The notes: generated by a model not told the origin, from the letters alone. A stretch of 64,000 nucleotides of DNA from Candidatus Binatia bacterium (GCA_038245295.1 JBBRSP010000032.1:1-64000); one strand, 5' to 3'; counted from the first letter of the stretch, positions 6,919 to 23,332 are shown. Program-made: numbers and translations.

Positions 6919-8598
6919 CTAATGCGGCATCGTACGTGCCGGGTAGTCCTTCGGGTTGTGGTCGCTGCCATGGCAGGTGAGGGCGCAGCGGCCGCTTCCG
7001 GTGCCGAGCTCGGTGTACTCGAGTTGTCCGCTACTGGACGGCGTGACGACTTGTTTGCTGGTGAGATCGCGACTCATGAAGTTGATCAGGTGCGCGTTGC
7101 GCCGCGAGCCATGGGCGTCATGGCACACGGCGCAGCTGGCTCCCTGTTCGACGACGTGCTGCCGGTGCGGGAACCCGTCGGGGCGGTTCAACAGCGTGTT
7201 GCGATCGTGGCAGCCGTAGCACAGCGCATACAGTTGGTACGACTCGGGACCGCTCGTCGCGTCGAAGTGATACTCGGCAGCAAGAATCGGCCGGTAGTTC
7301 GAGCCGTGCGGACCGCGCGGCGCCGCACTGCCGAAGGGCGCCGCGGCATCGTTGTTGTGGCAGGCGATGCAGAGCGTCCGGCTTGCGGCACTGAGTGATG
7401 GTAGCAGCCCCTGGATCGTCGAGTTGCGTCCGACATCGGCGACCGGATGAAACGACGGATTGCGCGGATCGATCTGCAGCCGAACGTTGCTTACCTGGTC
7501 GACACGGTAGACGATCGGGTCGCGGTCCTCGGTGACACCGTGGCACTTGAGGCACACTTCGTACTCGAACGTAGCTTCCCGCAGGAAAGTACCGCCGATA
7601 CTGATTCCCGAGACGCCAGTCAGCGGGCCCGGCAGTTGGCCGGCCGGCGCCGTACTGCGCGCCTGGTGGGGGTTGTGGCAATCGACGCACTCCACGTGCG
7701 GTGGCATGAAATTGGGGTTCTCGATTGGATCGTGGACATCGGTGAAACGATCGACGCGGTGGGCACTGAGCTTGTACGATTCGCGCCGCAAGTCTTTGGC
7801 GGCACTGCGCCCGTCGTGGCAGTCGAGGCAGACCGCTTCCTCGGTTGGCGCCGTCAGCAGCCGTTTGGGGTGCGGCGCCGCGTGTGAGCGATGGCAACTG
7901 AAGCAGCCGTTCTGTCCCACCGTAGCCTGGGCGGTTCCAGGCACGGCGCTCGCCTGCCCGGCACTCGCCGAGGATGTTGCGTGTGCCGACTCCTGCCAGT
8001 GCGGCAGCTTGTGACAGGTGACGCAGAGCCCGGAGTACGCCGGGTCGGTGACCAGAAACTTGGGATGGCGGTCGAGGTGCGCGTCGTGGCAGCTGGTGCA
8101 CTGCATCTGCCGGGTGTCGTCGAGGCGCACGTTGCCGGTCAGGCTCGACGGGCTGACGAGCTCGCGCCGTCGCGTCGCCAGTGACTGGTCGTAGACGAAG
8201 GAGACCGGATGGTCGTCGGACAGATCGGTGCCGAGCGTCGAGTCGGCGTCACCCTTGATTCCGCCCTTGGCGATCACGCCGTCGTGACACGATAGGCACA
8301 AACGTGAGCTGCCGGTCGGTTGCTGAACCTGCGCTTGCGTCGTGCTGCTCTCGTAGAGCTTGTAGATGACCGGTGCCAATTCCTGATTCCACAAGCCGCG
8401 CTGGGCGGCGGCGCTGTGGGGCGTGTGACAGAAGAAGCAGAGGTCGTCCCGACCAGACATCGGGACCGAGCGACCTGCGGCGGCGACTCCGCCGCGACGC
8501 GGACTGAGGTTGTGTGGTGTTTCGCGCAAGCCCGCCGAAGCGGTCAACGGGAGAACCGACACGACGATGACGACAAGCCGCCGGGCGACGCGTTTCAC
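6919..8598 (-). CDS. Multiheme cytochrome c (11 CxxCH + 1 Cx3CH); OmcE-like N-terminal tetraheme domain plus an 8-heme domain
   Basis: Signal peptide; CFFCH, CLSCH, CTSCH, CVTCH, CFSCH, CLDCH, CVDCH, CLKCH, CIACH, CYGCH, CAVCH, CALTCH. Confidence 0.92.
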   Translation of the reverse strand: MKRVARRLVVIVVSVLPLTASAGLRETPHNLSPRRGGVAAAGRSVPMSGRDDLCFFCHTPHSAAAQRGLWNQELAPVIYKLYESSTTQAQVQQPTGSSRLCLSCHDGVIAKGGIKGDADSTLGTDLSDDHPVSFVYDQSLATRRRELVSPSSLTGNVRLDDTRQMQCTSCHDAHLDRHPKFLVTDPAYSGLCVTCHKLPHWQESAHATSSASAGQASAVPGTAQATVGQNGCFSCHRSHAAPHPKRLLTAPTEEAVCLDCHDGRSAAKDLRRESYKLSAHRVDRFTDVHDPIENPNFMPPHVECVDCHNPHQARSTAPAGQLPGPLTGVSGISIGGTFLREATFEYEVCLKCHGVTEDRDPIVYRVDQVSNVRLQIDPRNPSFHPVADVGRNSTIQGLLPSLSAASRTLCIACHNNDAAAPFGSAAPRGPHGSNYRPILAAEYHFDATSGPESYQLYALCYGCHDRNTLLNRPDGFPHRQHVVEQGASCAVCHDAHGSRRNAHLINFMSRDLTSKQVVTPSSSGQLEYTELGTGSGRCALTCHGSDHNPKDYPARTMPH

Positions 8599-9635
8599 GA
8601 TGCACCCCCAAGCGAGCGAAATATCTGGACGCGTTGATTGTAGGTGTCGACGACGTAGATGCGGTCGCCATCGACGGCCAGGCCCGACGGGAGCCAGAAC
8701 TGACCGGGGTCGTGACCGCGGCCGCCGAATACCATGAGGTAGCGGCCGTCCCCGTCGAACAGCTGGACGGCATCGAAGAGAGCGTCGACAAGGTAGACGT
8801 GTCCGGCCGCATCCACGCCGATGCCCTTGGGCCGGGCGAGTTCACCGGAGCCATCACCCTGCTGACCGAAGACCCCGAGGCAGCGGCCATCGGGGTCGAA
8901 GCGCTGGACGCGAAAGTTGAGCCCGTCGGTGACATAGAGAGTGCCGCCGGCATCGACGGCCATCCAGGTCGGAAAATTGAATTCCCCCGGAGCCGCGCCG
9001 CGTTCGCCAAAACGCAACTGCAGCGCGCCCTGCGGATCGAAGACCAGGACCTGATGCTTGCCGCTGTCACTCACGTACAACCGCGAACGCGTGGCGTCGG
9101 CGGCGAGACCCGCCGGGCGCGCCCCTTTCTCCAGATCCCAGCCGCCGACGCACTCACCGTCCGCGTCGAAACTGTCGATGCGGCCGCGCGCCGCGTCGGC
9201 AACGAAGAGGCGCTGCCCGAGAAACGCCACGGCGACCGGCTCAGCGAATTTGCTCGCATCGCAGCTGGTAAGCGAGTGGGCTTTTTGCGCCGTCAGATCA
9301 TAGAGCTGCACACGCGCCGCACCCGGATCCGCCACCGCGATGCGTCGCGCGTCTACGGCGACTCCGGTTGGACGCACGATCTCAGGATCGTCGGCACCAC
9401 CAACAAGGGTGGCGAGCCGCGACCACAGGGACGGTTTGATGCCGAGATCGGCCGCGCCACCGAACGCGGAGACCCACTCGACGCGCGCCTGGTCGGGCGG
9501 AGAAGGCCACACGAGCCGCACCGCCTCGACGCCCGGGCGGCCGGCGTCCCCCCAGTGACAGGATGCCACTAGGCTGGCGAGCAAGGGCACGAGGATCAGG
9601 AGGCGCTGCCGCCAGAGTCGACGTTCGGTACCCAT
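8595..9635 (-). CDS. NHL-repeat six-bladed beta-propeller lipoprotein
   Basis: Lipobox LVASC; WPSPPDQARV; repeated PxGxAVD / FNFPT / RPKGIGVD blades. Confidence 0.88.
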   Translation of the reverse strand: MGTERRLWRQRLLILVPLLASLVASCHWGDAGRPGVEAVRLVWPSPPDQARVEWVSAFGGAADLGIKPSLWSRLATLVGGADDPEIVRPTGVAVDARRIAVADPGAARVQLYDLTAQKAHSLTSCDASKFAEPVAVAFLGQRLFVADAARGRIDSFDADGECVGGWDLEKGARPAGLAADATRSRLYVSDSGKHQVLVFDPQGALQLRFGERGAAPGEFNFPTWMAVDAGGTLYVTDGLNFRVQRFDPDGRCLGVFGQQGDGSGELARPKGIGVDAAGHVYLVDALFDAVQLFDGDGRYLMVFGGRGHDPGQFWLPSGLAVDGDRIYVVDTYNQRVQIFRSLGGAS

Positions 9636-9643: not shown

Positions 9644-11692
9644 TCAGAAGAACCGCCGTACCATGCGTAGTTCGGCGCGCATATCGTTTAGCCGCCCGCG
9701 ATAGTCGGTCCAGGTGAAGCTCGGCGCAACCTCGAAGTTGCGATACGTCCAGTGCAGCCGCACGCCGCAGTCGGCGATCTCGTCGCTGGCGACCGACGAA
9801 TCGTCGAAGGCGCGGTAGCCGGCGAAAGAGGATACCGATACGCCGAGCGGCGTGAACCAATCGACCGAGGCGCGTGCCAGATACGACCGGGAGTGGCGCT
9901 GTTGCCCCGGGTAGTCGACGAAGTACTCGTCACCACTCAGCTGAGCGCTGACGTCCTGCACCGGCTGGTACACCAGCAATTGCCCAAAGCGCAGGGCATT
10001 GGAGTCGACGATCGTCGATCGCACGAGCTCGTAGGCGGCGCTCGACTGCACGCGCACCGTGCTCCACTGCTGGCGCAATTCCAATTTGAAGCGATCGAGA
10101 TTCTGGTCGATCAGAAAGTTCGAACTCGAGGAACCGGAAAGACGCGTTTGGTCGCTGAGGATGTGCTCGTACGATGTCGCGCCCCACGGGAACTCGACGC
10201 CGGTCCTGACATCGGCCGAGGTGGTCGAGAAGTGAATGCTCGGATCGAGGTTGCTCGTGTAGCTGACCTCGAGTGGGTCGCCGGGTCGGATCACCGGACT
10301 CGTGGGCAGAATGATGATGCGCGTCAGGCTGCCTTCCTGACTGAGCACGTAGTCGACGTTCAGCGTCGTCGGTAGGCGCGAGCCGCCGCGCACGTCGACC
10401 ATGACGATGGTGTCGTTCTGCACAAACGGATTGTTCAGCGTGAATCCGGCGCCCACACCAAACACCGCCGGTGCGGTGTGCGGCTCGTCGACAACGTCGA
10501 GCTGCGACGAGGTGAAGTTGTTCTGGTCGATCTGATAGCCGCCGGAGCAGGCGGCGAAGAATTGCGCCCCCCAGGGGATCGAGCGCCGGTAATCCAAACC
10601 AGTCTGGCCGCCGTAAACCATTCGGTCTCCGGTCTGGAAGTCTTGACGCATGGCGCGAACGTTCGCCGTACTGATCAACGTGCGGTAGAGGCGGTGCAGC
10701 AGTCCGGCCGTCGCCACGTTGGTTGTGGTGACACCGCTGGTCGAGTCGCTCTGCGAGAAGCTGTAGCGGTAGTCGGTGTTGAAATCGGCGCTGTGGTCGA
10801 GGCGCATGGCCTCGTCGAGCGAGATGAAGCTTCCGGGCGACGTGCCGGTGCGTTTGAAGTAATAGAAGGCGGAATCGAGCCTGCGGTTGAGGGTGGGCCC
10901 GAAATCGAAGCTGTCCAGCGCGCGCACCGTGTGACGGTCGAAGATGTCGGTCGGATTGAGCGGGTCATCGACGTTGTTGAACTCGTAGCGCAGATCGAGG
11001 TCCGACGTTTCCCACCCCTTGTGTCCCTGGTAGCGCACCACGTTGCGCGTCTCGTCGCGTCGAAACGGGCTGCCGAAGACCGCAGAGTCCTCTTTGACCA
11101 GCTCCTGGTGCACGTCAACCAGGGAGCTGAAATTGAGCAGTCCATACTCCTTCAGGAGGCTATTCTCGCGCAGCTCGAAAACGCCGCCGTGGGTTGCGAA
11201 CGTACTGTCGGACCGACCACCGAATCCCTGCGACAAGATGCTCTGATTGCGGTTGGCGAAAAAGTTCAGGAGGTACGGACGATCGGCGAAGAGGATTCCG
11301 TCGATCGCGTAGTCGTAGAGATCACCGTTGCCATAACGCAGTGGCTCGCTGGTGACGTTGATCGCTTCCTCTTGCGACAGCCCGAAGGAGCCGCCGAAAT
11401 TGAAGGTCAGGACGCGCGGATCAAGCAAGTACGCTCCAACGTTGCGCAAGCCAATCTTCTCCTGGAAGAAAATCGTCTCGTAGATGTTGTCCGAGCGTTT
11501 GTCGTCCTGTTTTTGCCAGTTGGTGAGGAAAGAGGCCTCGCCCTGCCAACGACCGAGCGACCACGCGGCCTGGGCTCGCGCCGTGTGGGTCAGAGCCACC
11601 AGCGCGAGGCCGACCAGCGCCACGGTGCACAACCCGCTCGTCCAGCTTACCGTGACGGGGAAGCCGCTGGTCCGTTGGACCGCTGAGATCAC
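9644..11692 (-). CDS. Outer-membrane beta-barrel protein (porin-cytochrome type)
   Basis: Signal peptide, amphipathic aromatic-rich beta strands, C-terminal ELRMVRRFF; GTGA-coupled to the upstream cytochrome. Confidence 0.8.
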   Translation of the reverse strand: MISAVQRTSGFPVTVSWTSGLCTVALVGLALVALTHTARAQAAWSLGRWQGEASFLTNWQKQDDKRSDNIYETIFFQEKIGLRNVGAYLLDPRVLTFNFGGSFGLSQEEAINVTSEPLRYGNGDLYDYAIDGILFADRPYLLNFFANRNQSILSQGFGGRSDSTFATHGGVFELRENSLLKEYGLLNFSSLVDVHQELVKEDSAVFGSPFRRDETRNVVRYQGHKGWETSDLDLRYEFNNVDDPLNPTDIFDRHTVRALDSFDFGPTLNRRLDSAFYYFKRTGTSPGSFISLDEAMRLDHSADFNTDYRYSFSQSDSTSGVTTTNVATAGLLHRLYRTLISTANVRAMRQDFQTGDRMVYGGQTGLDYRRSIPWGAQFFAACSGGYQIDQNNFTSSQLDVVDEPHTAPAVFGVGAGFTLNNPFVQNDTIVMVDVRGGSRLPTTLNVDYVLSQEGSLTRIIILPTSPVIRPGDPLEVSYTSNLDPSIHFSTTSADVRTGVEFPWGATSYEHILSDQTRLSGSSSSNFLIDQNLDRFKLELRQQWSTVRVQSSAAYELVRSTIVDSNALRFGQLLVYQPVQDVSAQLSGDEYFVDYPGQQRHSRSYLARASVDWFTPLGVSVSSFAGYRAFDDSSVASDEIADCGVRLHWTYRNFEVAPSFTWTDYRGRLNDMRAELRMVRRFF

Positions 11693-12939
11693 GGAGCATC
11701 CTTGATCCCGCTGTGACAGCGCTCGCACTGGCCGATCAGCTCGGTTGCCACGTCACCATGACAGGTCGCGCAATACTTGCCGCCGGCGAGATCAGGCATG
11801 CCGAGTCTGCTGGCGCTGGTAGCCGCATCATAGAGGTTGGTGTGACAGTTGGCGCACTCGAGATAGCGGTGTGTCTTGTGAGAAAAGCTGGTGGCGCCTC
11901 CGGATGCGGCGATCGGGCCGACCGGCACGTCAAGGTCGAGTGTGCTCTCGTGGTGCCGCGCTTGCTCGAAGCTGGGGTGGCACGGCCGGCAGGTGGTGGT
12001 GATGCCAAAGGCGACCGATCCGTGGCACGAGCCGCAGTAGCGTCGCGAGTGCAGGTCGATCGCTTTAACTCCTTCCAGCTTGCTGGCGGTGGGGAACAAT
12101 CGTGGATGGCAGTTTTGACAGGACAGCCATTTGGTGTGGCTGGCGTGTGCAAAGATGGCTTTGAACGTAGGCTGCCCCGAGGACTCCATCACGACGTCGA
12201 GATCGAGCTGTGGCTGTGGCTCGGCGTTTGCCATGCGTCCCGGCCGCGGCGAAATCAGATTGTCGTTCAGGGCGCGGTTCCAATCGACGCGCCCGGTCGG
12301 ATCGCGCGGAATGTTTTGCAGGTGGCACAGGGTGCAACCGCTCTTGGTGTCGAACGCCACCGGTCCGTGGCAAGTCGCGCAGTAGCGGTTGGTGTGCACG
12401 TCCGGCGCCGGCAGCACGTCGCCGCTTTTCATCTCAAAGATGCTGTCATGGCAGTTCGCGCAGCTCAGCCATTGCCCGTGCTTCGCATGCGAGAAGGTCA
12501 CCTTGAACGCCGGATTGGCGGGGGGAACGAGATCGATATCGAGCTCGATGACGTCCTGCTGCTTGGCGTCCGGCTCGCGCCCAGGCCGTGGGGCAATCAC
12601 CTTCTCTTCTGCGGCCCGCGTCCAATCGGGATTTCCGACCGCGTCCTTGGGAAGCTTACGCACCACGTCGTCGAAGGTGGCGAACGCGTTGGGCCCACGT
12701 GCCTCGGCACCAAGCTGCACGTCATCCTGCGGTGGTACCGTCGGGGTTGGCGTGGCGGACGGCGGATGGCGCGGGCTGCGCGCCACCTGAGGCGGGGGCG
12801 TCTCGTCTGACGGAATATCCGCGAACAAGAACGCGAGAACGCGCTGACGGTCCTCCGCGCCGCATCCGACAACCCCTGCCACGAAGGCCAGAGCGAGCAG
12901 CAGCAGAACGACCGGCCTTGCCTGGGCCACCGACGTCAC
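11689..12939 (-). CDS. Nonaheme lipoprotein cytochrome (three c7-type triheme domains)
   Basis: Lipobox VVGC; 9 CxxCH in three FxHxxH...CxNCH...YCxxCHG...CxxCH repeats; GTG start overlapping the upstream stop. Confidence 0.9.
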   Translation of the reverse strand: MTSVAQARPVVLLLLALAFVAGVVGCGAEDRQRVLAFLFADIPSDETPPPQVARSPRHPPSATPTPTVPPQDDVQLGAEARGPNAFATFDDVVRKLPKDAVGNPDWTRAAEEKVIAPRPGREPDAKQQDVIELDIDLVPPANPAFKVTFSHAKHGQWLSCANCHDSIFEMKSGDVLPAPDVHTNRYCATCHGPVAFDTKSGCTLCHLQNIPRDPTGRVDWNRALNDNLISPRPGRMANAEPQPQLDLDVVMESSGQPTFKAIFAHASHTKWLSCQNCHPRLFPTASKLEGVKAIDLHSRRYCGSCHGSVAFGITTTCRPCHPSFEQARHHESTLDLDVPVGPIAASGGATSFSHKTHRYLECANCHTNLYDAATSASRLGMPDLAGGKYCATCHGDVATELIGQCERCHSGIKDAP

Positions 12940-13265
12940 GGCCCGATGTGGCAACGCTGGCACATGTCGGTGCCAAACGCGGCCTTGCCATTGTGGCAGG
13001 CTCCGCACGATTGCCCCTTCGCCATCGCCGCCATGGTCGGCGCTTCGCCTCGCTTCATGGCGAAGAGATCGTCGTGGCAGGCGTAACATTTGTATTGGAT
13101 GCGATGCACCCAGTGCGGGAAGTAGGCGATGGCGATCTCACCGGCGGGGCGTTGGCGCGGATAGACGATGTCACCCAGCGTCCCGGCGCGCGCCGGCAAA
13201 GCGCCAGTGACCAGAAGCCCCAGCATCAGGCCGAGGAACATGCGTGCGAGATGGTGGCGGGCCAC
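12936..13265 (-). CDS. Periplasmic triheme c7-type cytochrome
   Basis: Signal peptide; FPHWVH, CYACH, CGACHNG, CQRCH. Confidence 0.92.
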   Translation of the reverse strand: MARHHLARMFLGLMLGLLVTGALPARAGTLGDIVYPRQRPAGEIAIAYFPHWVHRIQYKCYACHDDLFAMKRGEAPTMAAMAKGQSCGACHNGKAAFGTDMCQRCHIGP

Positions 13266-13290: not shown

Positions 13291-13338
13291 CGTTCGGCGA
13301 AGAAGCCCATGGGTGCTGCGGGGCCTCTTCGCCGAACG
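13291..13338 (-). terminator. 18-bp GC-rich stem-loop directly 3' of the OmcE-like gene (mRNA stabiliser or partial terminator)
   Basis: CGTTCGGCGAAGAAGCCC / GGGCCTCTTCGCCGAACG inverted repeat; no clear U-tract. Confidence 0.65.
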
Positions 13339-13346: not shown

Positions 13347-13997
13347 CTAGATGTCGTGGCAGGTGCTGCAGATCGCGCTGCCGCCGTTGTCGATCTTCAA
13401 GAACGGCGGATACGCGTTGTCATGTGGATTGTGGCACGAGCCACACTGGACGAAGCCTGCCGAGTCGTAGTTGACTGCGTTGCCGGCCGGCACCGTCTTG
13501 AAACCGGTGAAGCCGGTAACGTTCGCCGGCTTGGTGACGCCCAACGGATGGTTCGTCCCCATGGCAGCCGGGTTCAGGAAGGCGGCGGACCCGGACGTCA
13601 ACTTCCCTGCCGTGACGTTGGGGCCACTGACGGTACCACCTGTGTCGCGGATCAAGTCACCCAGGGCAATCGTGCCGTCATGACAGCTCATGCAGGCGCG
13701 CGATCCCGCCAGGGCGGTGCTGGTCATGGAGGTCGGCAGAGTCGTCCCCCGGACCGTCGTGGTGGGTGCCCAGGTGAGGTTCTGGATCGTCATATTGTGA
13801 TTCCACAGTGGCCGGGCCGCTGCCGGCTGGCTGTTGTGAGTCACGTGGCAGAACACGCATGTTTGCGTCTGCGTATTCGACTTGATTGCCCCGCCGCCCG
13901 TCGAGCTCAAGTCGTGCTTCGTGCCGGCAATCGGCAAGGCAAGTGCAAGCCCCGGCGTCAGCAGGGCAAGAGCGAGAAAGACGAAGCGCTTTCTCAT
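13347..13997 (-). CDS. omcE: OmcE-like tetraheme cytochrome c (candidate nanowire subunit)
   Basis: 216 aa with signal peptide; IAGTKHDLSS, CVFCHVTHN, PLWNH, CMSCHDG, NHP, CGSCHNPHDN, PFL, terminal CSTCH follow the Geobacter OmcE motif order as recalled; strong GAGGAGG RBS. Confidence 0.8.
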   Translation of the reverse strand: MRKRFVFLALALLTPGLALALPIAGTKHDLSSTGGGAIKSNTQTQTCVFCHVTHNSQPAAARPLWNHNMTIQNLTWAPTTTVRGTTLPTSMTSTALAGSRACMSCHDGTIALGDLIRDTGGTVSGPNVTAGKLTSGSAAFLNPAAMGTNHPLGVTKPANVTGFTGFKTVPAGNAVNYDSAGFVQCGSCHNPHDNAYPPFLKIDNGGSAICSTCHDI

Positions 13998-14087
13998 GAT
14001 GTACCCTCCTCGTATGTGTTGTGATTGTTTCTGAGACATCTAAGGGCCTCGTTTCCTTTCAGCTGTGTTTCCGTTTCACCCCCGCCC

Positions 14088-15176
14088 TCAACGTCCTCCT
14101 TTCTCGCCTCGCGGAATGGCCGCACCGGACGACAACTGGACGCTGTCTTCGACGGCGGTGCCGATCAGCTCGTAAACGCCGACCCGTTTTCCGAACGTGT
14201 CGGAAACGTAGATGCGGTTGCGGTTGTCGATGGCGATGGCGGTAGGATTCGTCAGCAGCCCCGGATAGGAGCCGACGCCGCCGAAGATCATCAGCAGCTG
14301 ACCGTGCTGATTGAACATCTGCACGTTGCTCCAACGCGAGTCGACGACGTAGATGTTGCCGAACGTGTCGATGGCGACGCCCTTCGGTCGCGCGAAGTTG
14401 CCGAGCTGGTCGCCCGACTCACCAAACTTCCAGAGAAACTTGCCGCTCGAGTCGAAAACTTGAATGCGATTGTTGACCGAGTCGACCACGTAGAGCCGGC
14501 CGTCAGCGTCGAGGTTGGCGAATGTCGGGAAGTTGAATTCGCCGTCGGCGCCGCCGCGCTTGCCGATTTCCTGCACCAACTGGCCGCCGAGATCGAAGAC
14601 GCGGATGCAATGCCCTTGCGGCGTATCATTGCGGCCAGTGTCGACGACGTAAAGGCGCTGCCGCGTGTTGTCGACGGCGATGCCGGTCGGATGAATCAAG
14701 AGGTCCTTGCCGATGTTGCGCAGGAAGCCGCCGCCTCTGTCATAGACACGAACGCTCTGCGTCCCGGTGTCGGTGACGTACACGTTCTCCGCATCGTCGA
14801 GGGCGACGCCCACCGGCATCGCCAGGGCATACCGCTCGTCGTCGCCGATGCTGCGTAACGTGCCAGTCTTGGAATCGAAGACGAACACGGCGTTCCACAC
14901 GTGGTCGGCGACGTAGACGCGCTCGCCGTCCGCCGACACGGCCAGACCCATCGGCTGGTAGAGGGCGCGCGTCTTGTCGCTGCCGGCCAGCAGTTCGCGC
15001 ACAGACGGACCGCCGACATCATCGCGCGACTGGAGCGTGCCGATGAGCTTGATGCGCGGCGCGTCGGGCGGATCCGGCCAGAATACTTCTGGAAGTTGGG
15101 ATTGCTGCGTCGCGCAACCGGTGCAGTTTAAGGCGACGCTCATGACCAGCATGACGGAGACGGTGAGTGTTTTCAC
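14088..15176 (-). CDS. NHL-repeat beta-propeller lipoprotein
   Basis: CTGC lipobox; FWPDPPDAPRI; six NHL blades; paralog of 8595-9635. Confidence 0.88.
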   Translation of the reverse strand: MKTLTVSVMLVMSVALNCTGCATQQSQLPEVFWPDPPDAPRIKLIGTLQSRDDVGGPSVRELLAGSDKTRALYQPMGLAVSADGERVYVADHVWNAVFVFDSKTGTLRSIGDDERYALAMPVGVALDDAENVYVTDTGTQSVRVYDRGGGFLRNIGKDLLIHPTGIAVDNTRQRLYVVDTGRNDTPQGHCIRVFDLGGQLVQEIGKRGGADGEFNFPTFANLDADGRLYVVDSVNNRIQVFDSSGKFLWKFGESGDQLGNFARPKGVAIDTFGNIYVVDSRWSNVQMFNQHGQLLMIFGGVGSYPGLLTNPTAIAIDNRNRIYVSDTFGKRVGVYELIGTAVEDSVQLSSGAAIPRGEKGGR

Positions 15177-15189
15177 AGCGTCTCGCAAA

Positions 15190-15303
15190 TGCAATTCCCG
15201 TGCTCTGCAGCCATGCATCGTGACACGATATAGAACGATCCCATTTTAGTGTTCTCTCTGCAAATGCTTGCATGGTCTGATGGCTGTTCCGCAGAGCTTT
15301 GCA
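15190..15303 (-). promoter_or_regulatory. Internal promoter: sigma54-like element with paired palindromic activator sites
   Basis: Minus strand GAGCACGGGAATTGCA (15205-15190; one mismatch in the -24 GG); TGCAAATGCTTGCA at 15259 and CGCAGAGCTTTGCA at 15290. Confidence 0.55.
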
Positions 15304-15345: not shown

Positions 15346-18006
15346 TCAGCGCGCATAGTTGATTCTGTAGGATTCCGTTCCGTGGCAGGTTGGCGTGCAG
15401 GTACCGCCGGTCGTCGTTTCCGTATAGCTGATGATACCTGGCGTTCTTCCGGTGGCGATGAGGTGCGGCTGGGTCGCCACGCCGTGCGAGTCGTGGCAGG
15501 CGTAACAAGGGTATTGATGATCGCCGAGATGTTTCGTGTGGCCTTCGTCCGTCGCCGGTAGATTGAAGCGACTGTAACTCTTCTCGGTGATGGTCGCTCC
15601 CTCGTTGGCGTAGGTGTTGTAACGATGACAGGCGAAGCATTCTTCGGTGGACGCCATGACGCGCCGTGCGCTGGACGCAATTGCCGGCTGCTTGAGCAGG
15701 TAGCGATTCTGCGACCCGTGCGGGCCGCGCACCGTCGGGTCATCGCTGCTGTGGCAGTCGCCGCAGTACATCTGCGCCGAGCCGGTCCAGCCATTGATGA
15801 AGGAGAGGACGTTGACGTTGGTGTTCTTCCCGACAGCCTCAACCGGATGGTACGAGCGGTTGTTGCTGTTGAAGACGACGGCGAGATTCGACTGACCGGC
15901 CGGCTGCGTCGTCCAGGAGGAGTGGCACTTGAAGCACATCTGGTACTCGGCGACGGGCGCTGTCGAATCGCTCTTGTTGCGAAACGTGTATGCCGGGGTC
16001 GTTCCTGCCGCACCGTTGGTGACGGCGACACGTGATACGCCGCGAAGGTGATTGGAGAGGGCCGGCGCCGCAGGGGCTGCCGAGTCGGCGCGCGCCGCAT
16101 GGGAGTTGTGACAATCCTCACACTCGGCGTGACGGTTGGCGTTTCCAAATGCCGCCGAAGTGCCAGCCTCGGTGTTGCTGTGGCGGCCGCTGTAGTCGTC
16201 GGTCGGATGTCGGTAGGTCTTGGTATCCTGCAGCAGGATGTTCTTTGCCGCCGGGCCTCCGTCGTGGCAGGCGTAGCAAAGCTTCTCTTCGCGGTTGGCC
16301 AATAGGTTCGGATAGTCCTGCGTCGGCGTGCTGCCATCGGGCCAACCGTGGGTCATGTGACAATTCGTGCAAGACCCACGCTTCGTTGTGTCGATGACAC
16401 GCGGCAAACGCGTGCCGAACGACGGCCCCGGCCACAACGCGCCGGTCGTTGGATTCAAGTGCGCCGCCGGGGAGACCGTGTCGGCGAGGCTGTGGCAGTC
16501 AGTGCAGAGGGCGTTGAGATTCGACAGGCGCGCCAATGTCCCATCCGTGGCTCCGCCGTTGTTATGGAGCTGATGACACGACATGCACTGCACTTTGTGG
16601 GTCGTCTTGTCCAAGGGAATGGTCGACGGCGTCTTGTAGGCACCGGCCGGCAACACGACACCCACCGGGTGCGAGCCGAGAGCCGAGCCGTTGACATTGC
16701 GGGCACTGTGACAGTCGAGGCACGTTTGGTTGGTGTCGTCGTCCAGACGCTGACAATGGCGGCCGTTGCCGCCGGGGCCGGGCGTGCCACTCGGGCCGGG
16801 GGTCGGATAGGCCGGAGCTGTCGGATCGAACGGTTGGGCCATCTGGCTGTGCTCGTTGTGGCACGACGAACACGTAACCTTGCCGCTCGCCAGGCGCGCC
16901 GCCAGGGCCAGCGACGTTGGCTGATTGATGTCGCTGTTGGCATAGACGGTCCACTGATCGTTCAGCTTGAACGCCGGTGGTGGCGTGGCGTTCGCGAACG
17001 TTATGTTGATGCCCTCGTCGAGGCCGACATTGCTGCCGGTCGTGATGCCCGTGGTTGCCGGTGCGGCGACGAGGTACTCGATCTGGACATCATCGACGTA
17101 GACAAAGTCGGTCGCTCCCGCGGTGCCGCTCCCGAGAAAGCGAATGTACGTGGTGGTTGCGATGAAAGCGCTGAGGTCGAAGGCTTGCGCTACCACGGCA
17201 TTGTCGCAGGCATTGAGATTGTATGTAGCGAGCGTTGTCCATGTTGCACCGTCGGTGCTGGCCTGCAGCGCCACATTCGCGGTGCTGGTGTTCGGACACG
17301 TCGCCAGTTGACGTCGGTAGCTGAAGCTCAGTAGCGCGGAAGTGGCGCCGGTTGATGTGGACGGTCGTTGGATGGCCCTGGTGTTGATCGTGCCGCCGCC
17401 AATGCGCAAGCAATTGCCGGCGACACAGGCGGCGTTGGCGACGACACGCAGGACGCCGGCGTTGACGCCGTCCGCCTCGACCACCTCCTGCCACGGTGTG
17501 GCTGTCCACGTTCGAGTGCCGTTGCTCCCGTTGAAAGCGATGGTCGTAAACTCGTCGCGATAGGTCTGCGCCGCCGGCAACGAGGTCGTCCATCCAAACT
17601 TGGCAACGCCCACATCACCGGGCGTCGTGATCGTCAACGTGTAACTCTTCGAGTAACGCCCGCTGAAAGTACCTGCCGAGGTTACCTTGCCGGGCGACGT
17701 GTTGGCCGGGCTCGCCTTGACCCAACCCGAAGCGCCCGAGTCCCAGCGATGTGATGTGCCTCCCACTCCCGGCACCGCCTCGTCGGAATCGGCAAACGGC
17801 ATGGTCGCGGCCAAACCGCCGCTACTGTGGCAGCTCATGCACAAGTTCGGATTGCCGGCGATCTTGGTGATCGCTCCGCCAGGGGCGTGGTGTGTGATGT
17901 GGCAACTGGCGCAGGTGATCGAGTTGCTGGAGTCATGCGGCGGGTCGAGGGCCAGCGCCGGCGTCGTGAACGCGAGGAGGACGAGCAGCAGCAATCGTGC
18001 GCTCAT
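15346..18006 (-). CDS. Large multiheme cytochrome c (13 CxxCH + 1 Cx3CH) with an inserted non-heme beta-sandwich region
   Basis: Signal peptide; hemes 1-2, then ~300 aa without heme motifs, then 12 more motifs ending CTPTCH. Confidence 0.92.
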   Translation of the reverse strand: MSARLLLLVLLAFTTPALALDPPHDSSNSITCASCHITHHAPGGAITKIAGNPNLCMSCHSSGGLAATMPFADSDEAVPGVGGTSHRWDSGASGWVKASPANTSPGKVTSAGTFSGRYSKSYTLTITTPGDVGVAKFGWTTSLPAAQTYRDEFTTIAFNGSNGTRTWTATPWQEVVEADGVNAGVLRVVANAACVAGNCLRIGGGTINTRAIQRPSTSTGATSALLSFSYRRQLATCPNTSTANVALQASTDGATWTTLATYNLNACDNAVVAQAFDLSAFIATTTYIRFLGSGTAGATDFVYVDDVQIEYLVAAPATTGITTGSNVGLDEGINITFANATPPPAFKLNDQWTVYANSDINQPTSLALAARLASGKVTCSSCHNEHSQMAQPFDPTAPAYPTPGPSGTPGPGGNGRHCQRLDDDTNQTCLDCHSARNVNGSALGSHPVGVVLPAGAYKTPSTIPLDKTTHKVQCMSCHQLHNNGGATDGTLARLSNLNALCTDCHSLADTVSPAAHLNPTTGALWPGPSFGTRLPRVIDTTKRGSCTNCHMTHGWPDGSTPTQDYPNLLANREEKLCYACHDGGPAAKNILLQDTKTYRHPTDDYSGRHSNTEAGTSAAFGNANRHAECEDCHNSHAARADSAAPAAPALSNHLRGVSRVAVTNGAAGTTPAYTFRNKSDSTAPVAEYQMCFKCHSSWTTQPAGQSNLAVVFNSNNRSYHPVEAVGKNTNVNVLSFINGWTGSAQMYCGDCHSSDDPTVRGPHGSQNRYLLKQPAIASSARRVMASTEECFACHRYNTYANEGATITEKSYSRFNLPATDEGHTKHLGDHQYPCYACHDSHGVATQPHLIATGRTPGIISYTETTTGGTCTPTCHGTESYRINYAR

Positions 18007-20981
18007 GGCGCCACCCACCCGACGAAGCCATGCAAATCCACGGTGGAGCTCGGGGCCAGGTCAATCGCCTCCCCGAGCAAGGCGCCGTGAATTGCCGCGG
18101 CGCGCCCGACATGAATACGTCGGCTTGCCACGATCGAGCCGGTGACGGCGGACTCCCGCTTCAGTGCAGCCGACTGGTCCACGACGAACAGCACACGCTC
18201 GGGCGATAGGCCCTCGGTGTCGATGCGTGCTGCCGAACCGAGGATGAGACGGCCGTGTACGCGCACGATCACTGTATCGGTGCCGCCATCACCGGCCAAA
18301 GTCAGTCGACTTCCGGGGCCGAGGATGAGGTTGTTCAGGTCGACGACGACTTGTCCGCCACCAAGACTACCGGCAGCCGGGAGGCGGCGGCTAGCGGCGC
18401 GCCCCAGCGTTAGCGTGCCAAGAATGAGATCCGGTCGCGGTGCGAGGCCGGCGAGCTGCGCCAGCCGACGTGTCGCCAATGTCCGCGCCGCGACACACTC
18501 GGAGAGCGCCACGCTGTTGCCGGTTGTATCAACGCGTCCACTGACGCTGGTGGCCTCGATCCCGCTGACACTACCGCCGCCGGTGCTGGCATCGCCGCTG
18601 GTCGAACTGCCATGGCGAAAGGCGACGGCACGGCCGCTGTCGGCCCACGCTGTCAGGTTGCCGTCGACGCGCGCGAAGAGACCGAGCTTCAACTCCTCGA
18701 CACAGATCTCGCCGAGGACGATCGTATCGCTGCCGAGTTTGGTCGTGCGACGCACGTGTGTAGGCAGGGGCCAGCGCAGCAGGGCGTAGTTCGCGGTGAC
18801 GAAGCGGCCGCGACAGGAACCGGCTCCGTTACAGGTATCACCCACGGTCGCGGCATCCAGGTCATCGCAAGGCTTTGTGGAGAATGGGTGTCCACAAGTG
18901 CCCGCCGAGTCGCAAATGTCGTCCGTGCAGTCGTTGCCATCGTTGCAGTCCCGTAAGGCGCCCCGGCACACACCGCCGGCGCAGTTGTCACCGAGCGTGC
19001 AAGCATTGCCGTCGTCGCACGCAGCCGAGTTGTTGCCGCGGGCGCAGCCGCTAGCCGGATTGCAGCTGTCATCGGTGCAGTCGTTGGCGTCATTGCAATC
19101 ACGCGCCGCGCCGCGGCAGGTGCCGTCGCCGCAGGTGTCACCCACGGTGCAGGCATTGCCGTCGTCGCACGCAGCCGAGTTGTTGCCGTGGGCGCAGCCG
19201 CTCGTCGGATTGCAGCCGTCATCGGTGCAGTCGTTGCTGTCATTGCAGTCGCGCGGCGCGCCGCCACAAATGCCGCTGCCGCAGGTGTCACCCAGGGTGC
19301 AAGCGCTGCCGTCGTCGCAGGGCGAGATGTTGTCGGCGTGGAGGCAGCCACTGGCGGGGGCGCAGCTGTCGTCGGTGCAGGTATTGTTGTCGTTGCAGTC
19401 GAGCGCCGCGCCGGTGCAGACTCCGCCGCCGCAGGTATCACCCGAGGTGCAAGCGTTGGCATCGTCACAGGCTGCCGTGTTTGGGCTGAAGACACAGCCG
19501 TTCGGCGCATCACACGAATCGTCGGTGCAGACATTGCCGTCGTCGCAATGGAGCGCCCGTCCGACACAGACTCCGGCGCTGCAAGTATCTTCGATAGTGC
19601 AGGCGTCGCCATCTTCGCAGCCACCGCCGTCCGCCTTGGCCCGAACCGTGCAGCCGCTGGGGACAAGGCATACCGCCTCGCTACACTGCGGGTCGGCGTC
19701 GCCGAGAGGGCAGAGGGTGCCCGGGCCACAGATCGTCACCTGCAGCGCCGTCGAGCCCTCGAAGTGCATGGCGCCGATGGAACCGGTGAGCTGGACGGTC
19801 GCGGCACCTTGCGCCGGCAGTGTGGTGAGCAACTGGGCTGTATCAAATTCGACGCGCAGGTCGGCCACACCGTTGTTGTCATGATCGCCGCTGGTGACGG
19901 TGGCGGAAGCGTGGATGCCATTGGCGGTGATAGTCGATGGGTCGATCTGGTCCGGTGAGTATCCCGGCACTTCGATGTAGGCCGCGACTACCGGCGGCGG
20001 CGTCGCACGTTCGATGGGATCCGGAGCGATCTGGGCCACAGCGGGTGCGACGCTTTCGGGATCGGTGAAGGTGCCGAGACTGAAGACTTCGAGGCGAGCG
20101 TTATTGGCGGCGGCGATGAAGAGGCGATTAGAGGAATCAATCGCCAGACTCACGGGGATCCTCAACTGGCCCGGGGCATCGCCGAAGTCGCCGAGATAAC
20201 TTACGAAGTCGCCGTTACGATCGAGGACCTCGACGCGGCCTTCGACGGAGTCCGCCACGTAGACGCGCCCCTGGGCGTCGAGAGCGATTCCTTGCGGCAT
20301 GTTGAACTTGCCGGCGCTGTTTCCCTGGGCGCCGAAGCAGGACAGGAATGTGCCGTCGGCGGCGAAGGTCTCGACGCGATAGTTGAGTTGGTCGACAACG
20401 AGGACCTGCCGTGTCGCCGCATCTACAGCGACGGCGACGGGGACGTTGAACTGGCCATCGCCGCTGCCTTGTCCTCCGAACGCGAACAGGGGAGCACCAC
20501 CGGCCGCGTAGACTTTGACGCTGTGGGCGGCGCTGTCGACGATGTACAGATTACCGGTAACGGCCTCGATCGCGATGTCGTTCGGCAGCCCGAGCTCGCC
20601 GGCGCCGCGGCCGCATTGAAAGAGCTGCTGCCAGGCGGCGTCGAACGCCGTGACACTGCCCGTGGCGGCATCGCCGACGTAGATTGTGTCATTGCCGGCG
20701 ACGGCAACACTTGTTGGGCGAGCAACGGGCTTGGTCCGCGACAAGACCCGGCCGTTTGCCGCCCGCACGACGATCTCGTTGAGCGCCGAATCGACGATGT
20801 AAAGGTTGCCCGACGGAGTCGCGGCGACACGACTCGGCACGCCAAAAGGGGCTCGATAGGCGCGCAGGTATGACGCCGGTGGTGCCGGCAATGCTGAGGT
20901 GCCGCCACCTCCACACAACCCATGCGCCGTCGAGGAGAGTAGCAGCGCGGGAAGAACGAGAAGTCGTATTGGGAGTGACAT
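18003..20981 (-). CDS. Secreted modular protein: NHL propeller, Cys-rich CDDGNACT repeats, C-terminal beta-helix-like domain
   Basis: Signal peptide; NHL blades; 50-aa Cys repeats; C-terminal RVLFVV/GSIVA/GALLG beta-solenoid-like pattern. Confidence 0.8.
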   Translation of the reverse strand: MSLPIRLLVLPALLLSSTAHGLCGGGGTSALPAPPASYLRAYRAPFGVPSRVAATPSGNLYIVDSALNEIVVRAANGRVLSRTKPVARPTSVAVAGNDTIYVGDAATGSVTAFDAAWQQLFQCGRGAGELGLPNDIAIEAVTGNLYIVDSAAHSVKVYAAGGAPLFAFGGQGSGDGQFNVPVAVAVDAATRQVLVVDQLNYRVETFAADGTFLSCFGAQGNSAGKFNMPQGIALDAQGRVYVADSVEGRVEVLDRNGDFVSYLGDFGDAPGQLRIPVSLAIDSSNRLFIAAANNARLEVFSLGTFTDPESVAPAVAQIAPDPIERATPPPVVAAYIEVPGYSPDQIDPSTITANGIHASATVTSGDHDNNGVADLRVEFDTAQLLTTLPAQGAATVQLTGSIGAMHFEGSTALQVTICGPGTLCPLGDADPQCSEAVCLVPSGCTVRAKADGGGCEDGDACTIEDTCSAGVCVGRALHCDDGNVCTDDSCDAPNGCVFSPNTAACDDANACTSGDTCGGGVCTGAALDCNDNNTCTDDSCAPASGCLHADNISPCDDGSACTLGDTCGSGICGGAPRDCNDSNDCTDDGCNPTSGCAHGNNSAACDDGNACTVGDTCGDGTCRGAARDCNDANDCTDDSCNPASGCARGNNSAACDDGNACTLGDNCAGGVCRGALRDCNDGNDCTDDICDSAGTCGHPFSTKPCDDLDAATVGDTCNGAGSCRGRFVTANYALLRWPLPTHVRRTTKLGSDTIVLGEICVEELKLGLFARVDGNLTAWADSGRAVAFRHGSSTSGDASTGGGSVSGIEATSVSGRVDTTGNSVALSECVAARTLATRRLAQLAGLAPRPDLILGTLTLGRAASRRLPAAGSLGGGQVVVDLNNLILGPGSRLTLAGDGGTDTVIVRVHGRLILGSAARIDTEGLSPERVLFVVDQSAALKRESAVTGSIVASRRIHVGRAAAIHGALLGEAIDLAPSSTVDLHGFVGWVAP
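18860..19620 (-). repeat. Intragenic 150-bp tandem repeat encoding 50-aa Cys-rich units
   Basis: GCATTGCCGTCGTCGCACGCAGCCGAGTTGTTGCCG at 19003 and 19153; degenerate copies at 19303 and 19453. Confidence 0.85.
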
Positions 20982-22378: not shown

Positions 22379-22381
22379 GGC

Positions 22382-23332
22382 TCAATACATGTTCACCGCG
22401 ATGACGTGCAGGACTCCTGCAAGCACCAACATAATGAACAGCGGAATGTGCAGCGCGTGCCAGAGCGAGAACAGTCGCTCGAAGGCGCCGAACTGCAGAT
22501 CTTTGACAAGGGCGTTCATGTAGTCGCGGATGACCTCGGCGGTTTCCTCCTCGTTCAGGCGAGTACCGCAGCCTTCGGGTTGAGTGCCCCGGGTGGCCGC
22601 CAGCAGATCACGATGCAGGTCGCGTACAATGCGACGCTGCACCCAGGCGGCATAAAACGGCAGGACCAGGATCCGAAATAGACGACTGACGAGACCCGTG
22701 CGTTGGGCTCCGGCACGACGTGCGAACCGTGCCAGGCGCTGTGCGGCGTCGGATGTCGGGGGTAGCCGTTCCTCCAAGGTGTGGGCGGACGAGTCGAGCA
22801 TCGCATCGAGGTCTTTGATGGTGGCGCGTGCGCCGTAGAGGCCGTGGCTGATGCGTGTGTAGATGTAGCGGCCGACGACGCCGCTGGCCGACACGATCAG
22901 CATCGAAAACAATGCGACATTACTGTTGGGCGCCCCCAGGTGGAAGCCACAGTGGAATAGGATCAGCACGGGGCCGATGACCCCGAGCAGCATGTGCGTG
23001 CGGAACCAGTGGCTCAGGGAACCCCAGGAGCGCATGAAGCGTAGCGACTTGCGGGCCGGGTACAGGGCCAGAATAAGCATGGCTGAGGCGCCGGCGATGC
23101 CAAGTCCGTAACCGAGCCCATGTTTTGGTGTGATCCCGAGATGATCCCGGGAACTCCAGCCGAGAGTCACGGTGATCGCGACGACGCCGGTAAACAGGAT
23201 GGCGGAAAGGCTCGGGTTGTGTGCCTTGCGGTGGACCCGCCGCGGTCGCGTCGCCGATTGTGAATCGTCATCACGGGCACGCCCGGTAAGATGGATCGAG
23301 AAGGGGCGAGCAACACTCATCGTCGACTCCAT
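22382..23332 (-). CDS. His-rich integral membrane protein (cytochrome b / ferric-reductase-TM-like)
   Basis: About 5 hydrophobic segments; WFRTHMLLGVIGPVLILFH and LWHALHIPLF...VLHV intramembrane His pairs. Confidence 0.7.
   Translation of the reverse strand: MESTMSVARPFSIHLTGRARDDDSQSATRPRRVHRKAHNPSLSAILFTGVVAITVTLGWSSRDHLGITPKHGLGYGLGIAGASAMLILALYPARKSLRFMRSWGSLSHWFRTHMLLGVIGPVLILFHCGFHLGAPNSNVALFSMLIVSASGVVGRYIYTRISHGLYGARATIKDLDAMLDSSAHTLEERLPPTSDAAQRLARFARRAGAQRTGLVSRLFRILVLPFYAAWVQRRIVRDLHRDLLAATRGTQPEGCGTRLNEEETAEVIRDYMNALVKDLQFGAFERLFSLWHALHIPLFIMLVLAGVLHVIAVNMY

What the first reader, a model, noticed from the sequence alone, without database searches (positions are those of the whole stretch)
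13347..13997. OmcE-like tetraheme cytochrome, the probable filament subunit
Seen: signal peptide then IAGTKHDLSS-CVFCHVTH-PLWN-CMSCHDG-NHP-CGSCHNPHDN-PFL-CSTCH with almost no C-terminal tail. From recollection of G. sulfurreducens OmcE (TKHDLSS, CVFCHTPH, PLWN, CMSCHDG, DHP, CGSCH..HDN, PFL, CxxCH), size and motif order match, including the extra His residues needed for bis-His ligation. Polymerisation is inference.
Basis: partly seen in the sequence, partly recalled or inferred. Interest (0 to 1): 0.85.

Follow-up and report, generated by a model that had tools for sequence, protein, structure and literature searches.

The report
OmcE-family tetraheme cytochrome, likely nanowire subunit
This gene encodes a secreted four-heme protein clearly related to the building block of Geobacter's OmcE "nanowires", set among the kinds of helper genes those wires have, so it is a new member of a known family and its polymerisation is still unproven.

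Summary
Window 13347-13997 (-) encodes a 216-aa protein with a Sec signal, four CxxCH motifs and four further histidines that are invariant or nearly so.

Its only solved relatives are the two OmcE nanowire subunits: 7TFS at E 4e-21 and 9YUQ at E 9e-21. An AlphaFold model superposes on 7TFS with Z 14.5 and 2.7 A over 176 of 202 residues.

The gene order MHC-NHL-MHC-NHL-tetraheme-hairpin matches six Desulfuromonadales omcE loci. Downstream lie c7 cytochromes, a roughly 30-strand outer-membrane barrel, a propeller lipoprotein and an undecaheme. This resembles the published "uet" cluster.

Polymerisation remains inference. The family is very large, with 5,416 cluster representatives at E <= 1e-10. 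Orthology to Geobacter OmcE is unresolved. The barrel shows no detectable similarity to the Desulfuromonadales one.

Verdict: a new member of a known kind, probably in Binatia. The most novel lead is that the cluster's undecaheme starts with an OmcE-like domain and carries a surplus invariant histidine, so it may anchor the wire.

The parts
13347..13997 (-). OmcE-family tetraheme c-type cytochrome, 216 aa. The Sec signal is residues 1-20, with predicted cleavage ALA|LP. Hemes attach at C47/C50/H51, C102/C105/H106, C185/C188/H189 and C210/C213/H214. The distal His are H28, H54, H150 and H192.
14004..14009 (-). Ribosome-binding site GGAGGG, 6 nt upstream of the ATG at 13997.
   Evidence: Read from the sequence.
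13291..13338 (-). An 18-bp hairpin with a 12-nt loop directly after the stop codon and no U-tract. It is a probable transcript-stabilising or attenuating element between the subunit gene and the downstream genes.
   Evidence: z -4.15, and 0 of 200 shuffles fold as well. Hairpins lie at the same place in L005 and in 6 of 6 Desulfuromonadales omcE loci, 5 of them with a U-tract.
14088..15218 (-). NHL-repeat beta-propeller protein (376-aa ORF) directly upstream of the tetraheme gene.
   Evidence: Pfam NHL, E 9e-29. It is 31-37% identical over about 335-363 residues to the propellers beside Desulfuromonadales omcE.
15346..18018 (-). Multiheme cytochrome, 890 aa, with 13 CxxCH and 1 CxxxCH.
   Evidence: No solved relative at E <= 0.01.
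18003..20981 (-). A 992-aa secreted protein with an N-terminal NHL propeller, repeats, and an ice-binding-like C-terminal part.
20996..22378 (-). Multiheme cytochrome of c3/c7 type, 460 aa, with 18 CxxCH.
22382..23332 (-). A 316-aa His-rich protein with a hydrophobic stretch and no Pfam family. It is a possible heme-b membrane partner of the 18-heme protein (lead only).
   Evidence: Searches found no family. The nearest Atlas cluster is auto-named 'ferric reductase like', score 0.97.
12936..13265 (-). c7-type triheme cytochrome, 109 aa, with a signal peptide.
   Evidence: TIGR04257, E 6e-22. Three CxxCH.
11689..12939 (-). Lipoprotein with three c7-type triheme domains (9 CxxCH). The probable start is the GTG at 12939, which overlaps the upstream stop as GTGA. 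The lipobox is VVGC.
9644..11728 (-). Large outer-membrane beta-barrel, 694-aa ORF. It has a signal peptide, about 28-30 long strands, an insert at about 418-485, and ends in ...RRFF.
   Evidence: AlphaFold pLDDT 87.7. Foldseek hits are only large outer-membrane barrels, with TM about 0.3. No Pfam or NCBIfam family.
8595..9635 (-). NHL beta-propeller lipoprotein, 346 aa from the ATG at 9635, with lipobox VASC.
6919..8598 (-). Undecaheme cytochrome, 559 aa, with 11 CxxCH and 1 CxxxCH. Residues about 24-198 form an OmcE-like four-heme domain that keeps all eight His. Residues 223-552 resemble the first multiheme protein of Desulfuromonadales omcE clusters.

Best explanation
The gene encodes the major subunit of an OmcE-type extracellular cytochrome filament.

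Proposed sequence of events:
1. The precursor is exported by Sec and its signal is cut after residue 20 (inferred).
2. Four hemes are attached at the CxxCH motifs. This follows from the established biochemistry of c-type cytochromes.
3. The holo-protein crosses the outer membrane with help from the neighbouring beta-propeller proteins and a large barrel (inferred from context).
4. Subunits then stack head to tail. Seven of the eight axial His bind hemes of their own subunit. The eighth, most likely H28 at the N-terminal end, completes the bis-His ligation of the open heme of the next subunit. This gives one continuous heme chain that carries respiratory electrons away from the cell (inferred by homology).

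Electrons would reach the wire from the c7-type periplasmic cytochromes and the barrel/undecaheme conduit encoded just downstream.

Shown here: family, fold, ligand set and context. Inferred: export route, polymerisation, which His bridges subunits, and the direction of electron flow.
For: 1. Solved relatives. The only ones are the two OmcE nanowire subunits, 7TFS (E 4.3e-21) and 9YUQ (E 9e-21), aligned over residues 12-214 and 3-215.

2. Fold. The AlphaFold model (pLDDT 83.9) has 7TFS as its only Foldseek hit (E 2.2e-8). By VIA-align it gives Z 14.5, 2.7 A, 176 of 202 residues and 33% identity. The next hit is OmcS at Z 4.5.

3. Ligands. All four CxxCH and H28, H54 and H192 are invariant in 117 of 117 aligned homologues, and H150 is conserved in at least 90%. 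PMC13712944 (sections 7 and 12 read) says four CxxCH plus four His are the conserved features, and that the subunit interface has a heme needing a His from the next subunit.

4. Bridging His. The solved OmcE chain runs from residue 30 to 231, and the His aligned with H28 is residue 31 by the numbering. This His therefore sits at the very start of the ordered chain. The His equivalent to H150 is described as binding an internal heme.

5. Gene order. The order multiheme, NHL, multiheme, NHL, tetraheme matches 5 of 6 Desulfuromonadales omcE loci; in the sixth the second NHL gene follows the tetraheme gene. An NHL gene lies within 600 nt on the same strand of 52 of 63 stand-alone tetraheme genes.

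6. Barrel. A large beta-barrel gene lies 1.6 kb downstream, as the published criterion requires.

7. Hairpin. A strong hairpin follows the stop codon here, in L005 and in 6 of 6 Desulfuromonadales loci. This fits a subunit made in excess of its partners.

8. Duplication. In two of the four relatives that hold a close orthologue the gene is tandemly repeated: two copies in G222, and a second, split copy in G200.
Against: - Only two members of a family with 5,416 cluster representatives at E <= 1e-10 are known to polymerise. This protein is only about 33% identical to one of them.
- Stand-alone relatives from other lineages score higher against the solved subunits: an acidobacterial one 100 bits and a Desulfuromonadales one 139 bits, against 79 bits here.
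- In the IQ-TREE tree the window's clade of 9 is well supported, but it is not joined to the Desulfuromonadales OmcE group by any supported branch.
- The barrel family here is not found beside Desulfuromonadales omcE by hmmsearch (0 ORFs in the six loci). It shows no profile-profile similarity to their barrels (probability about 1%).
- The eight-His pattern is equally conserved in the N-terminal domain of undecaheme proteins (67 of 67), so it is not specific to polymer subunits.
- The identity of the bridging His was not read from a paper. The OmcE structure paper is not held.
Confidence: 0.58

Rival explanations
1. It is a non-polymerising tetraheme cytochrome that works as a discrete partner of the barrel/undecaheme conduit, like the UetA tetraheme proposed for the uet cluster. 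It would pass electrons between the conduit and soluble or surface acceptors, or donors, as a monomer or small oligomer.
For: The lower half of the cluster has tetraheme, c7 trihemes, barrel, NHL and undecaheme. This matches the gene content listed for uetA-J in bioRxiv 10.1101/2022.05.06.490989 (passages read).

42 of 63 stand-alone tetraheme genes have an undecaheme gene within 12 kb. The barrel belongs to the family found beside undecahemes (37 ORFs in 78 loci), not to the one beside Desulfuromonadales omcE. 9 of the 30 relatives of the same family or order hold only undecaheme-type matches, without a close orthologue of this gene.
Against: The uet authors themselves leave polymerisation open. 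The fold and all ligands match a protein whose known state is a polymer. If the fold is the same, a monomer would leave one heme five-coordinate and one His unused. The upstream half of the cluster follows the Desulfuromonadales omcE pattern.
Confidence: 0.3
2. It is a minor or specialised subunit (tip, cap or alternative subunit) of a filament whose major subunit is another OmcE-like paralogue of the same genome, such as the 271-aa protein on contig C19.
For: The genome has four OmcE-like regions: two stand-alone and two fused. The C19 271-aa protein also sits beside an NHL propeller gene.
Against: The window protein scores better against solved OmcE (79 bits) than the C19 paralogue does (57 bits). 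It has the hairpin and the upstream NHL gene typical of omcE loci. The two paralogues fall in different clades.
Confidence: 0.07
3. The gene is silent or decaying and has no present function.
For: None found.
Against: The frame is intact with a good ribosome-binding site. All 16 heme-binding residues are kept. The whole ten-gene arrangement is conserved at 44-67% identity in locus L005.
Confidence: 0.03

Closest known systems
OmcE nanowire subunit of Geobacter sulfurreducens (PDB 7TFS) and of Desulfuromonas soudanensis WTL (PDB 9YUQ; PMC13712944)
   Same: - Size: 216 aa against 232 and 218.
- Sec signal, four CxxCH motifs, and four extra His in the same order.
- Almost no C-terminal tail.
- Coil-rich fold: Z 14.5, 2.7 A.
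- An NHL propeller gene directly upstream, a hairpin after the stop codon, and a large barrel gene downstream.
   Different: - About 33% identity only.
- A separate, well-supported clade of uncultured, probably Binatia, sequences.
- Two c7 cytochrome genes are inserted between the subunit gene and the barrel gene.
- The barrel is of another sequence family.
- The flanking multihemes have 13 and 18 hemes, instead of 8 and 7-23.
- No glycosyltransferase genes were seen in the cluster.
- Polymerisation has not been shown.
uet cluster of 'Candidatus Tenderia electrophaga' (UetA tetraheme, UetC 28-strand barrel, UetD/E/G c7 trihemes, UetH/I NHL proteins, UetJ undecaheme; bioRxiv 10.1101/2022.05.06.490989)
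   Same: The gene content matches in the stretch 6919-13997: tetraheme, c7 triheme domains, a barrel of about 28-30 strands, an NHL propeller, and a protein with eleven CxxCH.
   Different: - No peptidyl-prolyl isomerase or cupredoxin gene was found in the window's cluster.
- The gene order differs.
- No Tenderia sequence was compared here, so orthology is untested.
- The uet system is proposed for electron uptake.
'Porin-scaffold-cytochrome' EET clusters of peat Acidobacteriota and Verrucomicrobiota (bioRxiv 10.64898/2026.05.27.727921, section 9 read)
   Same: A porin plus multiheme cytochromes described as 'OmcE-like' with 8-13 hemes. Loci from these phyla hold the barrel, NHL and undecaheme module seen here.
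   Different: That preprint does not use the words tetraheme, NHL, barrel or Binat in its main text. Direct correspondence was not tested.

Membership tests
OmcE-type cytochrome nanowire subunit | About 200-aa secreted protein with exactly four CxxCH heme-binding motifs | tested here: met
   216 aa with an N-terminal signal. CxxCH at 47, 102, 185 and 210.
OmcE-type cytochrome nanowire subunit | Four further conserved His giving bis-His ligation of all hemes (PMC13712944, section 7) | tested here: met
   H28, H54 and H192 are invariant and H150 is conserved in at least 90% of 117 sequences. In stand-alone relatives they are conserved in 62-65 of 65.
OmcE-type cytochrome nanowire subunit | Full-length sequence similarity to a solved OmcE subunit | tested here: met
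   7TFS E 4.3e-21 and 9YUQ E 9e-21. There is no other significant PDB hit.
OmcE-type cytochrome nanowire subunit | OmcE fold | tested here: met
   This rests on a predicted model only. VIA-align gives Z 14.5, 2.7 A and 176 of 202 residues. Foldseek gives E 2.2e-8 and TM 0.61/0.65.
OmcE-type cytochrome nanowire subunit | Beta-propeller (lipo)protein gene beside the subunit gene | tested here: met
   The NHL376 gene ends 90 nt upstream. The same arrangement is seen in 5 of 6 Desulfuromonadales loci. A clear lipobox is seen only in the second propeller.
OmcE-type cytochrome nanowire subunit | Large outer-membrane beta-barrel gene in the cluster | tested here: met
   694-aa ORF, about 28-30 strands, pLDDT 87.7.
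OmcE-type cytochrome nanowire subunit | The barrel is homologous to the barrel next to bona fide omcE | tested here: inconclusive
   hmmsearch finds no match in the six Desulfuromonadales loci. hhalign probability is about 1%. Barrels diverge fast, so common descent is not excluded.
OmcE-type cytochrome nanowire subunit | Orthology with Geobacter/Desulfuromonas OmcE (same clade) | tested here: inconclusive
   The window clade (9 rows, support 99) lies on the stand-alone side of the tree. No supported branch joins it to the Desulfuromonadales group.
OmcE-type cytochrome nanowire subunit | Head-to-tail polymer with one heme ligated by a His of the next subunit | not testable with these tools
This needs a structure or a heme-complete multimer model.
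uet-type undecaheme conduit cluster | Tetraheme, c7 trihemes, large barrel, NHL proteins and an undecaheme encoded together | tested here: met
   All are present on one strand between 6919 and 13997. The content is as listed.
uet-type undecaheme conduit cluster | Peptidyl-prolyl isomerase (UetB) and cupredoxin (UetF) genes | tested here: not met
   No such Pfam or NCBIfam domain occurs in any ORF of 4723-23332.
uet-type undecaheme conduit cluster | Sequence orthology to Tenderia Uet proteins | not tested

The most novel reading that the evidence does not exclude
The cluster encodes a wire together with its socket.

The 559-aa undecaheme (6919-8598) begins, right after its signal peptide, with an OmcE-like four-heme domain that keeps all eight His, including the N-terminal one. 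Its family has 13 conserved non-motif His for 12 heme motifs. One of them is an invariant His (H206) ten residues after the fourth CxxCH.

The undecaheme could therefore be the in-cluster 'anchor' cytochrome that Petersen et al. postulated but did not find in the D. soudanensis cluster. Its OmcE-like head would join one end of the OmcE-type filament through the same His-heme handshake. Its own open heme would be closed internally. Its seven further hemes would run through the roughly 30-strand barrel held by the propeller lipoprotein.

Barrel, propeller and undecaheme recur together in loci of more than a dozen phyla, mostly with a stand-alone tetraheme gene nearby. This would give a general answer to how OmcE-type wires are mounted and wired to the cell.
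Probability: 0.2. Interest if true: 0.75.

Novelty: new member of a known kind. Interest (0 to 1): 0.42.

Why it matters
If this protein polymerises, cytochrome nanowires of the OmcE type extend to an uncultured soil and sediment lineage, probably Binatia. That lineage is not among the five phyla named in PMC13712944 (main text searched: 0 occurrences of 'Binat'). It would be a further candidate for mineral or humic respiration in these habitats.

More generally, the locus places side by side the two gene sets that the literature treats separately: the Desulfuromonadia omcE cluster and the uet-type barrel/undecaheme conduit. It also offers a concrete candidate for the unknown anchor that mounts such wires on the cell.

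Tried and rejected
- **Homodimer prediction.** Residues 21-216, two copies with four hemes, alignment A2. The verdict was 'no answer' (score 0.01, mark 0.42, controls not run). It says nothing either way. The job could hold only four of the eight hemes that two subunits need.
- **Expression.** No RNA holder was listed for 9600-18100. No reads were laid.
- **OmcE structure paper.** PMC9357133 is not held, so I could not read which His bridges subunits. Further searches gave only the general statement.
- **Taxonomic marker.** An rpoB family search of the window's genome found no match. Taxonomy therefore rests on names of barrel homologues and on earlier notes.
- **Terminator scan.** The consensus scan found no terminator in 12800-15400. 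The hairpin was found only by folding.
- **Barrel comparison.** Pfam and NCBIfam give nothing for either barrel family. hmmsearch and hhalign between them found nothing.
- **Atlas search.** Searching with the tetraheme returned only generic cytochrome c3/paired-CxxCH clusters.
- **One mistyped call.** It gave a locus as 'of'. It was corrected through a handle.

Full report
**1. Observation**

The minus-strand ORF 13347-13997 gives a 216-aa protein. A GGAGGG site lies 6 nt before the ATG at 13997. Many homologues are exactly 216 aa and start the same way, so this start is preferred over the ATG at 14039.

The protein has a typical Sec signal (residues 1-20...GLALA|LP) and four CxxCH motifs at 47, 102, 185 and 210. 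It ends two residues after the last motif.

**2. Family**

phmmer against all PDB chains finds two significant relatives, both OmcE nanowire subunits:
- 7TFS from G. sulfurreducens, E 4.3e-21, residues 12-214.
- 9YUQ, E 9e-21, residues 3-215.

I take 9YUQ to be the D. soudanensis WTL bundle of PMC13712944. I infer this from its 16 chains and 218-aa length. The entry code was not seen in the passages I read.

An AlphaFold2 model from a 117-sequence alignment has pLDDT 83.9 and pTM 0.76. Foldseek finds only 7TFS (E 2.2e-8, TM 0.61/0.65). A Foldseek-independent scan of 48,161 chains gives 7TFS at Z 14.5, 2.7 A over 176 of 202 residues and 33% identity. The next hits are OmcS at Z 4.5 and MtrC at Z 2.8.

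In the 117-sequence alignment the invariant residues are:
- all eight Cys;
- the four motif His;
- H28, H54 and H192;
- W65.

H150 is kept in at least 90%. This is the pattern that PMC13712944 (section 7, read) gives for OmcE homologues: four CxxCH plus four further His.

**3. Which His bridges subunits**

The literature I could read says only that one heme at the interface needs a His from the next subunit. The sources are the eLife OmcZ paper (passages), a review (passages) and PMC13712944 (discussion). The original OmcE paper is not held.

My inference that H28 is the bridging His rests on three points:
- The solved chain runs from residue 30 to 231. The His aligned with H28 is residue 31 in the numbering, so it sits at the very start of the ordered chain.
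- The His equivalent to H150 is said to bind an internal heme.
- H54 and H192 each lie three residues after a CxxCH. From my own knowledge of paired-CxxCH domains, such a His usually binds the following heme of the same chain.

This is inference, not a result.

**4. Surroundings**

All genes from 4723 to 23332 are on the minus strand. In order of transcription they are:
1. A 316-aa His-rich protein with a hydrophobic stretch and no family.
2. An 18-heme cytochrome.
3. A 992-aa NHL-propeller protein.
4. A 13-heme cytochrome.
5. A 376-aa NHL propeller.
6. The tetraheme.
7. A c7 triheme.
8. A lipoprotein with three c7 domains. Its GTG start overlaps the preceding stop.
9. A 694-aa protein without any family.
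10. A 346-aa NHL lipoprotein.
11. A 559-aa cytochrome with eleven CxxCH and one CxxxCH.
12. A DUF2889 protein.
13. A DUF11 protein.

The 694-aa protein folds, with pLDDT 87.7, into about 28-30 long strands with a small insert, and it ends in Phe. Its structural neighbours are only large outer-membrane barrels, at low TM. [quoted passage not shown]

**5. Direct comparison with bona fide omcE loci**

A Desulfuromonadales MAG protein (L046) scores 139 bits against 9YUQ. I used it to search 41 genomes of its order. 15 of them had a match at E <= 1e-25, and I cut out six 20-kb regions.

In all six loci the order is: multiheme (7-23 hemes), NHL, octaheme, then NHL and tetraheme, then a 740-791-aa ORF ending in ...K[IT]F. 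In one locus the last NHL gene follows the tetraheme gene instead of preceding it.

The window's upper half follows the same pattern (18-heme, NHL, 13-heme, NHL, tetraheme). Its propellers are 31-37% identical to theirs over about 335-363 residues.

The window's barrel is a different matter. A profile of its family finds nothing in the six loci. Profile-profile comparison with their barrels gives a probability of about 1%.

**6. The hairpin**

An 18-bp hairpin sits directly after the stop codon (13291-13338; z -4.15). The closest locus L005 has one too (z -3.3). All six Desulfuromonadales loci have a GC-rich hairpin at the same place, five of them with a U-tract. I read this as a device that lets the subunit be made in excess of the downstream genes. 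That reading is inference.

**7. The wider family and the fused form**

A scan of species-representative genomes found 590 relatives, of which 78 loci were kept. Re-analysis showed that most of the primary hits are the N-terminal domain of proteins of about 560-780 aa. 52 of 68 such large ORFs have exactly eleven CxxCH. They are usually preceded by an NHL gene, and often by a barrel of the window's family (37 ORFs).

The same loci also hold stand-alone four-heme genes. Of 63 such genes:
- 52 have an NHL gene within 600 nt on the same strand (25 upstream, 28 downstream, one locus with both);
- 42 have an undecaheme gene within 12 kb.

By record titles the loci come from Acidobacteriota, Verrucomicrobiota, Planctomycetota, Bacteroidota, Chlorobiota/Ignavibacteriota, Nitrospirota, Campylobacterota, Pseudomonadota, Myxococcota, Kiritimatiellota, Chlamydiota and several candidate phyla, including Binatia.

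The exhaustive profile search counts 8,708, 5,416 and 2,263 cluster representatives at E <= 1e-3, 1e-10 and 1e-30.

The gene content of the window's lower half matches the uet cluster of 'Ca. Tenderia electrophaga' (passages read). A 2026 preprint describes porin-scaffold-cytochrome clusters with 'OmcE-like' multihemes in peat bacteria (section 9 read).

**8. Phylogeny**

In a FastTree of 141 domains, stand-alone and fused forms need only 5 changes of label, against a shuffled mean of 47.

In an IQ-TREE quick tree of 73 rows I chose representatives by hand and left out the other 68 rows of the first tree. The window protein sits in a clade of nine stand-alone sequences (support 99). That clade is on the stand-alone side together with the Desulfuromonadales OmcE group, but it is not joined to that group by a supported branch. 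Orthology is therefore open.

Bit scores against 7TFS / 9YUQ:

| Protein | 7TFS | 9YUQ |
|---|---|---|
| Desulfuromonadales L046 | 120 | 139 |
| Acidobacterial stand-alone protein | 100 | 97 |
| Window protein | 79 | 78 |
| Window undecaheme head | 68 | 59 |
| Contig-19 paralogue | 57 | 49 |

**9. Lineage**

Close barrel homologues (62% identity) are named Candidatus Binatia bacterium or Deltaproteobacteria bacterium. A more distant one is named Candidatus Binataceae. Earlier notes of this scan also call the genome Binatia.

Among 30 relatives of the same family or order:
- four hold a close orthologue (61-70% identity), and in two of these the gene is tandemly repeated;
- nine hold only undecaheme-type or other distant matches.

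Across the 150 other genomes sampled from the phylum, 16 have a match at E <= 1e-15. None exceeds 43% identity.

**10. The undecaheme as a possible anchor**

The window's undecaheme starts, after its signal peptide, with an OmcE-like domain (36% identity over residues 4-215 of the tetraheme). All eight His are kept in 67 of 67 fused domains.

In 59 aligned undecahemes there are 13 conserved non-motif His for 12 heme motifs. One of them, H206, is invariant and lies ten residues after the fourth CxxCH. Residues 223-552 resemble the first multiheme protein of the Desulfuromonadales clusters (24% identity, E 2e-8 to 5e-15).

PMC13712944 proposes that an anchor would be an OmcE-like protein with nine His and four hemes. 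It found a candidate only outside the cluster. The undecaheme head fits that description and is in-cluster. This is my most novel reading, and it is untested.

**11. Verdict**

The protein is a member of the OmcE-like tetraheme family, in a cluster that meets the published context criteria in kind.

That it forms a filament is the best reading (about 0.6) but is not shown. A discrete UetA-like role is the main rival.

It is a new member of a known kind.

Noticed in passing
window 6919-8598 (-): The undecaheme cytochrome has an N-terminal OmcE-like four-heme domain. Its family has one more conserved His than heme motifs, including the invariant H206. It is a possible in-cluster anchor or adaptor for the wire.
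   Followed up: partly
L002 1261-3234 and L004 1390-2205 (contig C19 of the window's genome): The genome has a second NHL-plus-undecaheme-like pair (657 aa, 10 CxxCH). It also has a second stand-alone OmcE-like tetraheme (271 aa) followed by an NHL propeller gene.
   Followed up: partly
window 13291-13338 (-); L095-L100: A strong hairpin lies directly after the tetraheme stop codon. All six Desulfuromonadales omcE genes examined have one too, five of them as intrinsic terminators.
   Followed up: partly
window 20996-23332 (-): An 18-heme cytochrome is preceded by a 316-aa His-rich protein with a hydrophobic stretch and no Pfam family. The nearest Atlas cluster is auto-named 'ferric reductase like'. 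This could be the inner-membrane entry point of the pathway.
   Followed up: partly
window 12936-12939 (-): The stop codon of the c7 triheme gene and the GTG start of the triple-c7 lipoprotein gene overlap as GTGA, which suggests translational coupling.
   Followed up: yes
G222:C39:8518-9881 and G200:C1:11741-13053: In two relatives the close orthologue of the tetraheme gene is tandemly repeated. In G200 the second copy is split into two frames.
   Followed up: no
window 31317-36170 (-): A 1,617-aa ORF whose only clear domains are Big_2 and a weak carboxypeptidase-regulatory-like match. It is probably a giant surface protein.
   Followed up: no
window 46003-61019: Genes of F420 biosynthesis type (F420 ligase and two radical-SAM CofG/H-like genes) lie near two luciferase-like monooxygenase genes.
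   Followed up: no
window 4723-6847 (-): DUF2889 and DUF11-repeat proteins close the cytochrome cluster. They have no match in the related loci examined, including L005.
   Followed up: partly
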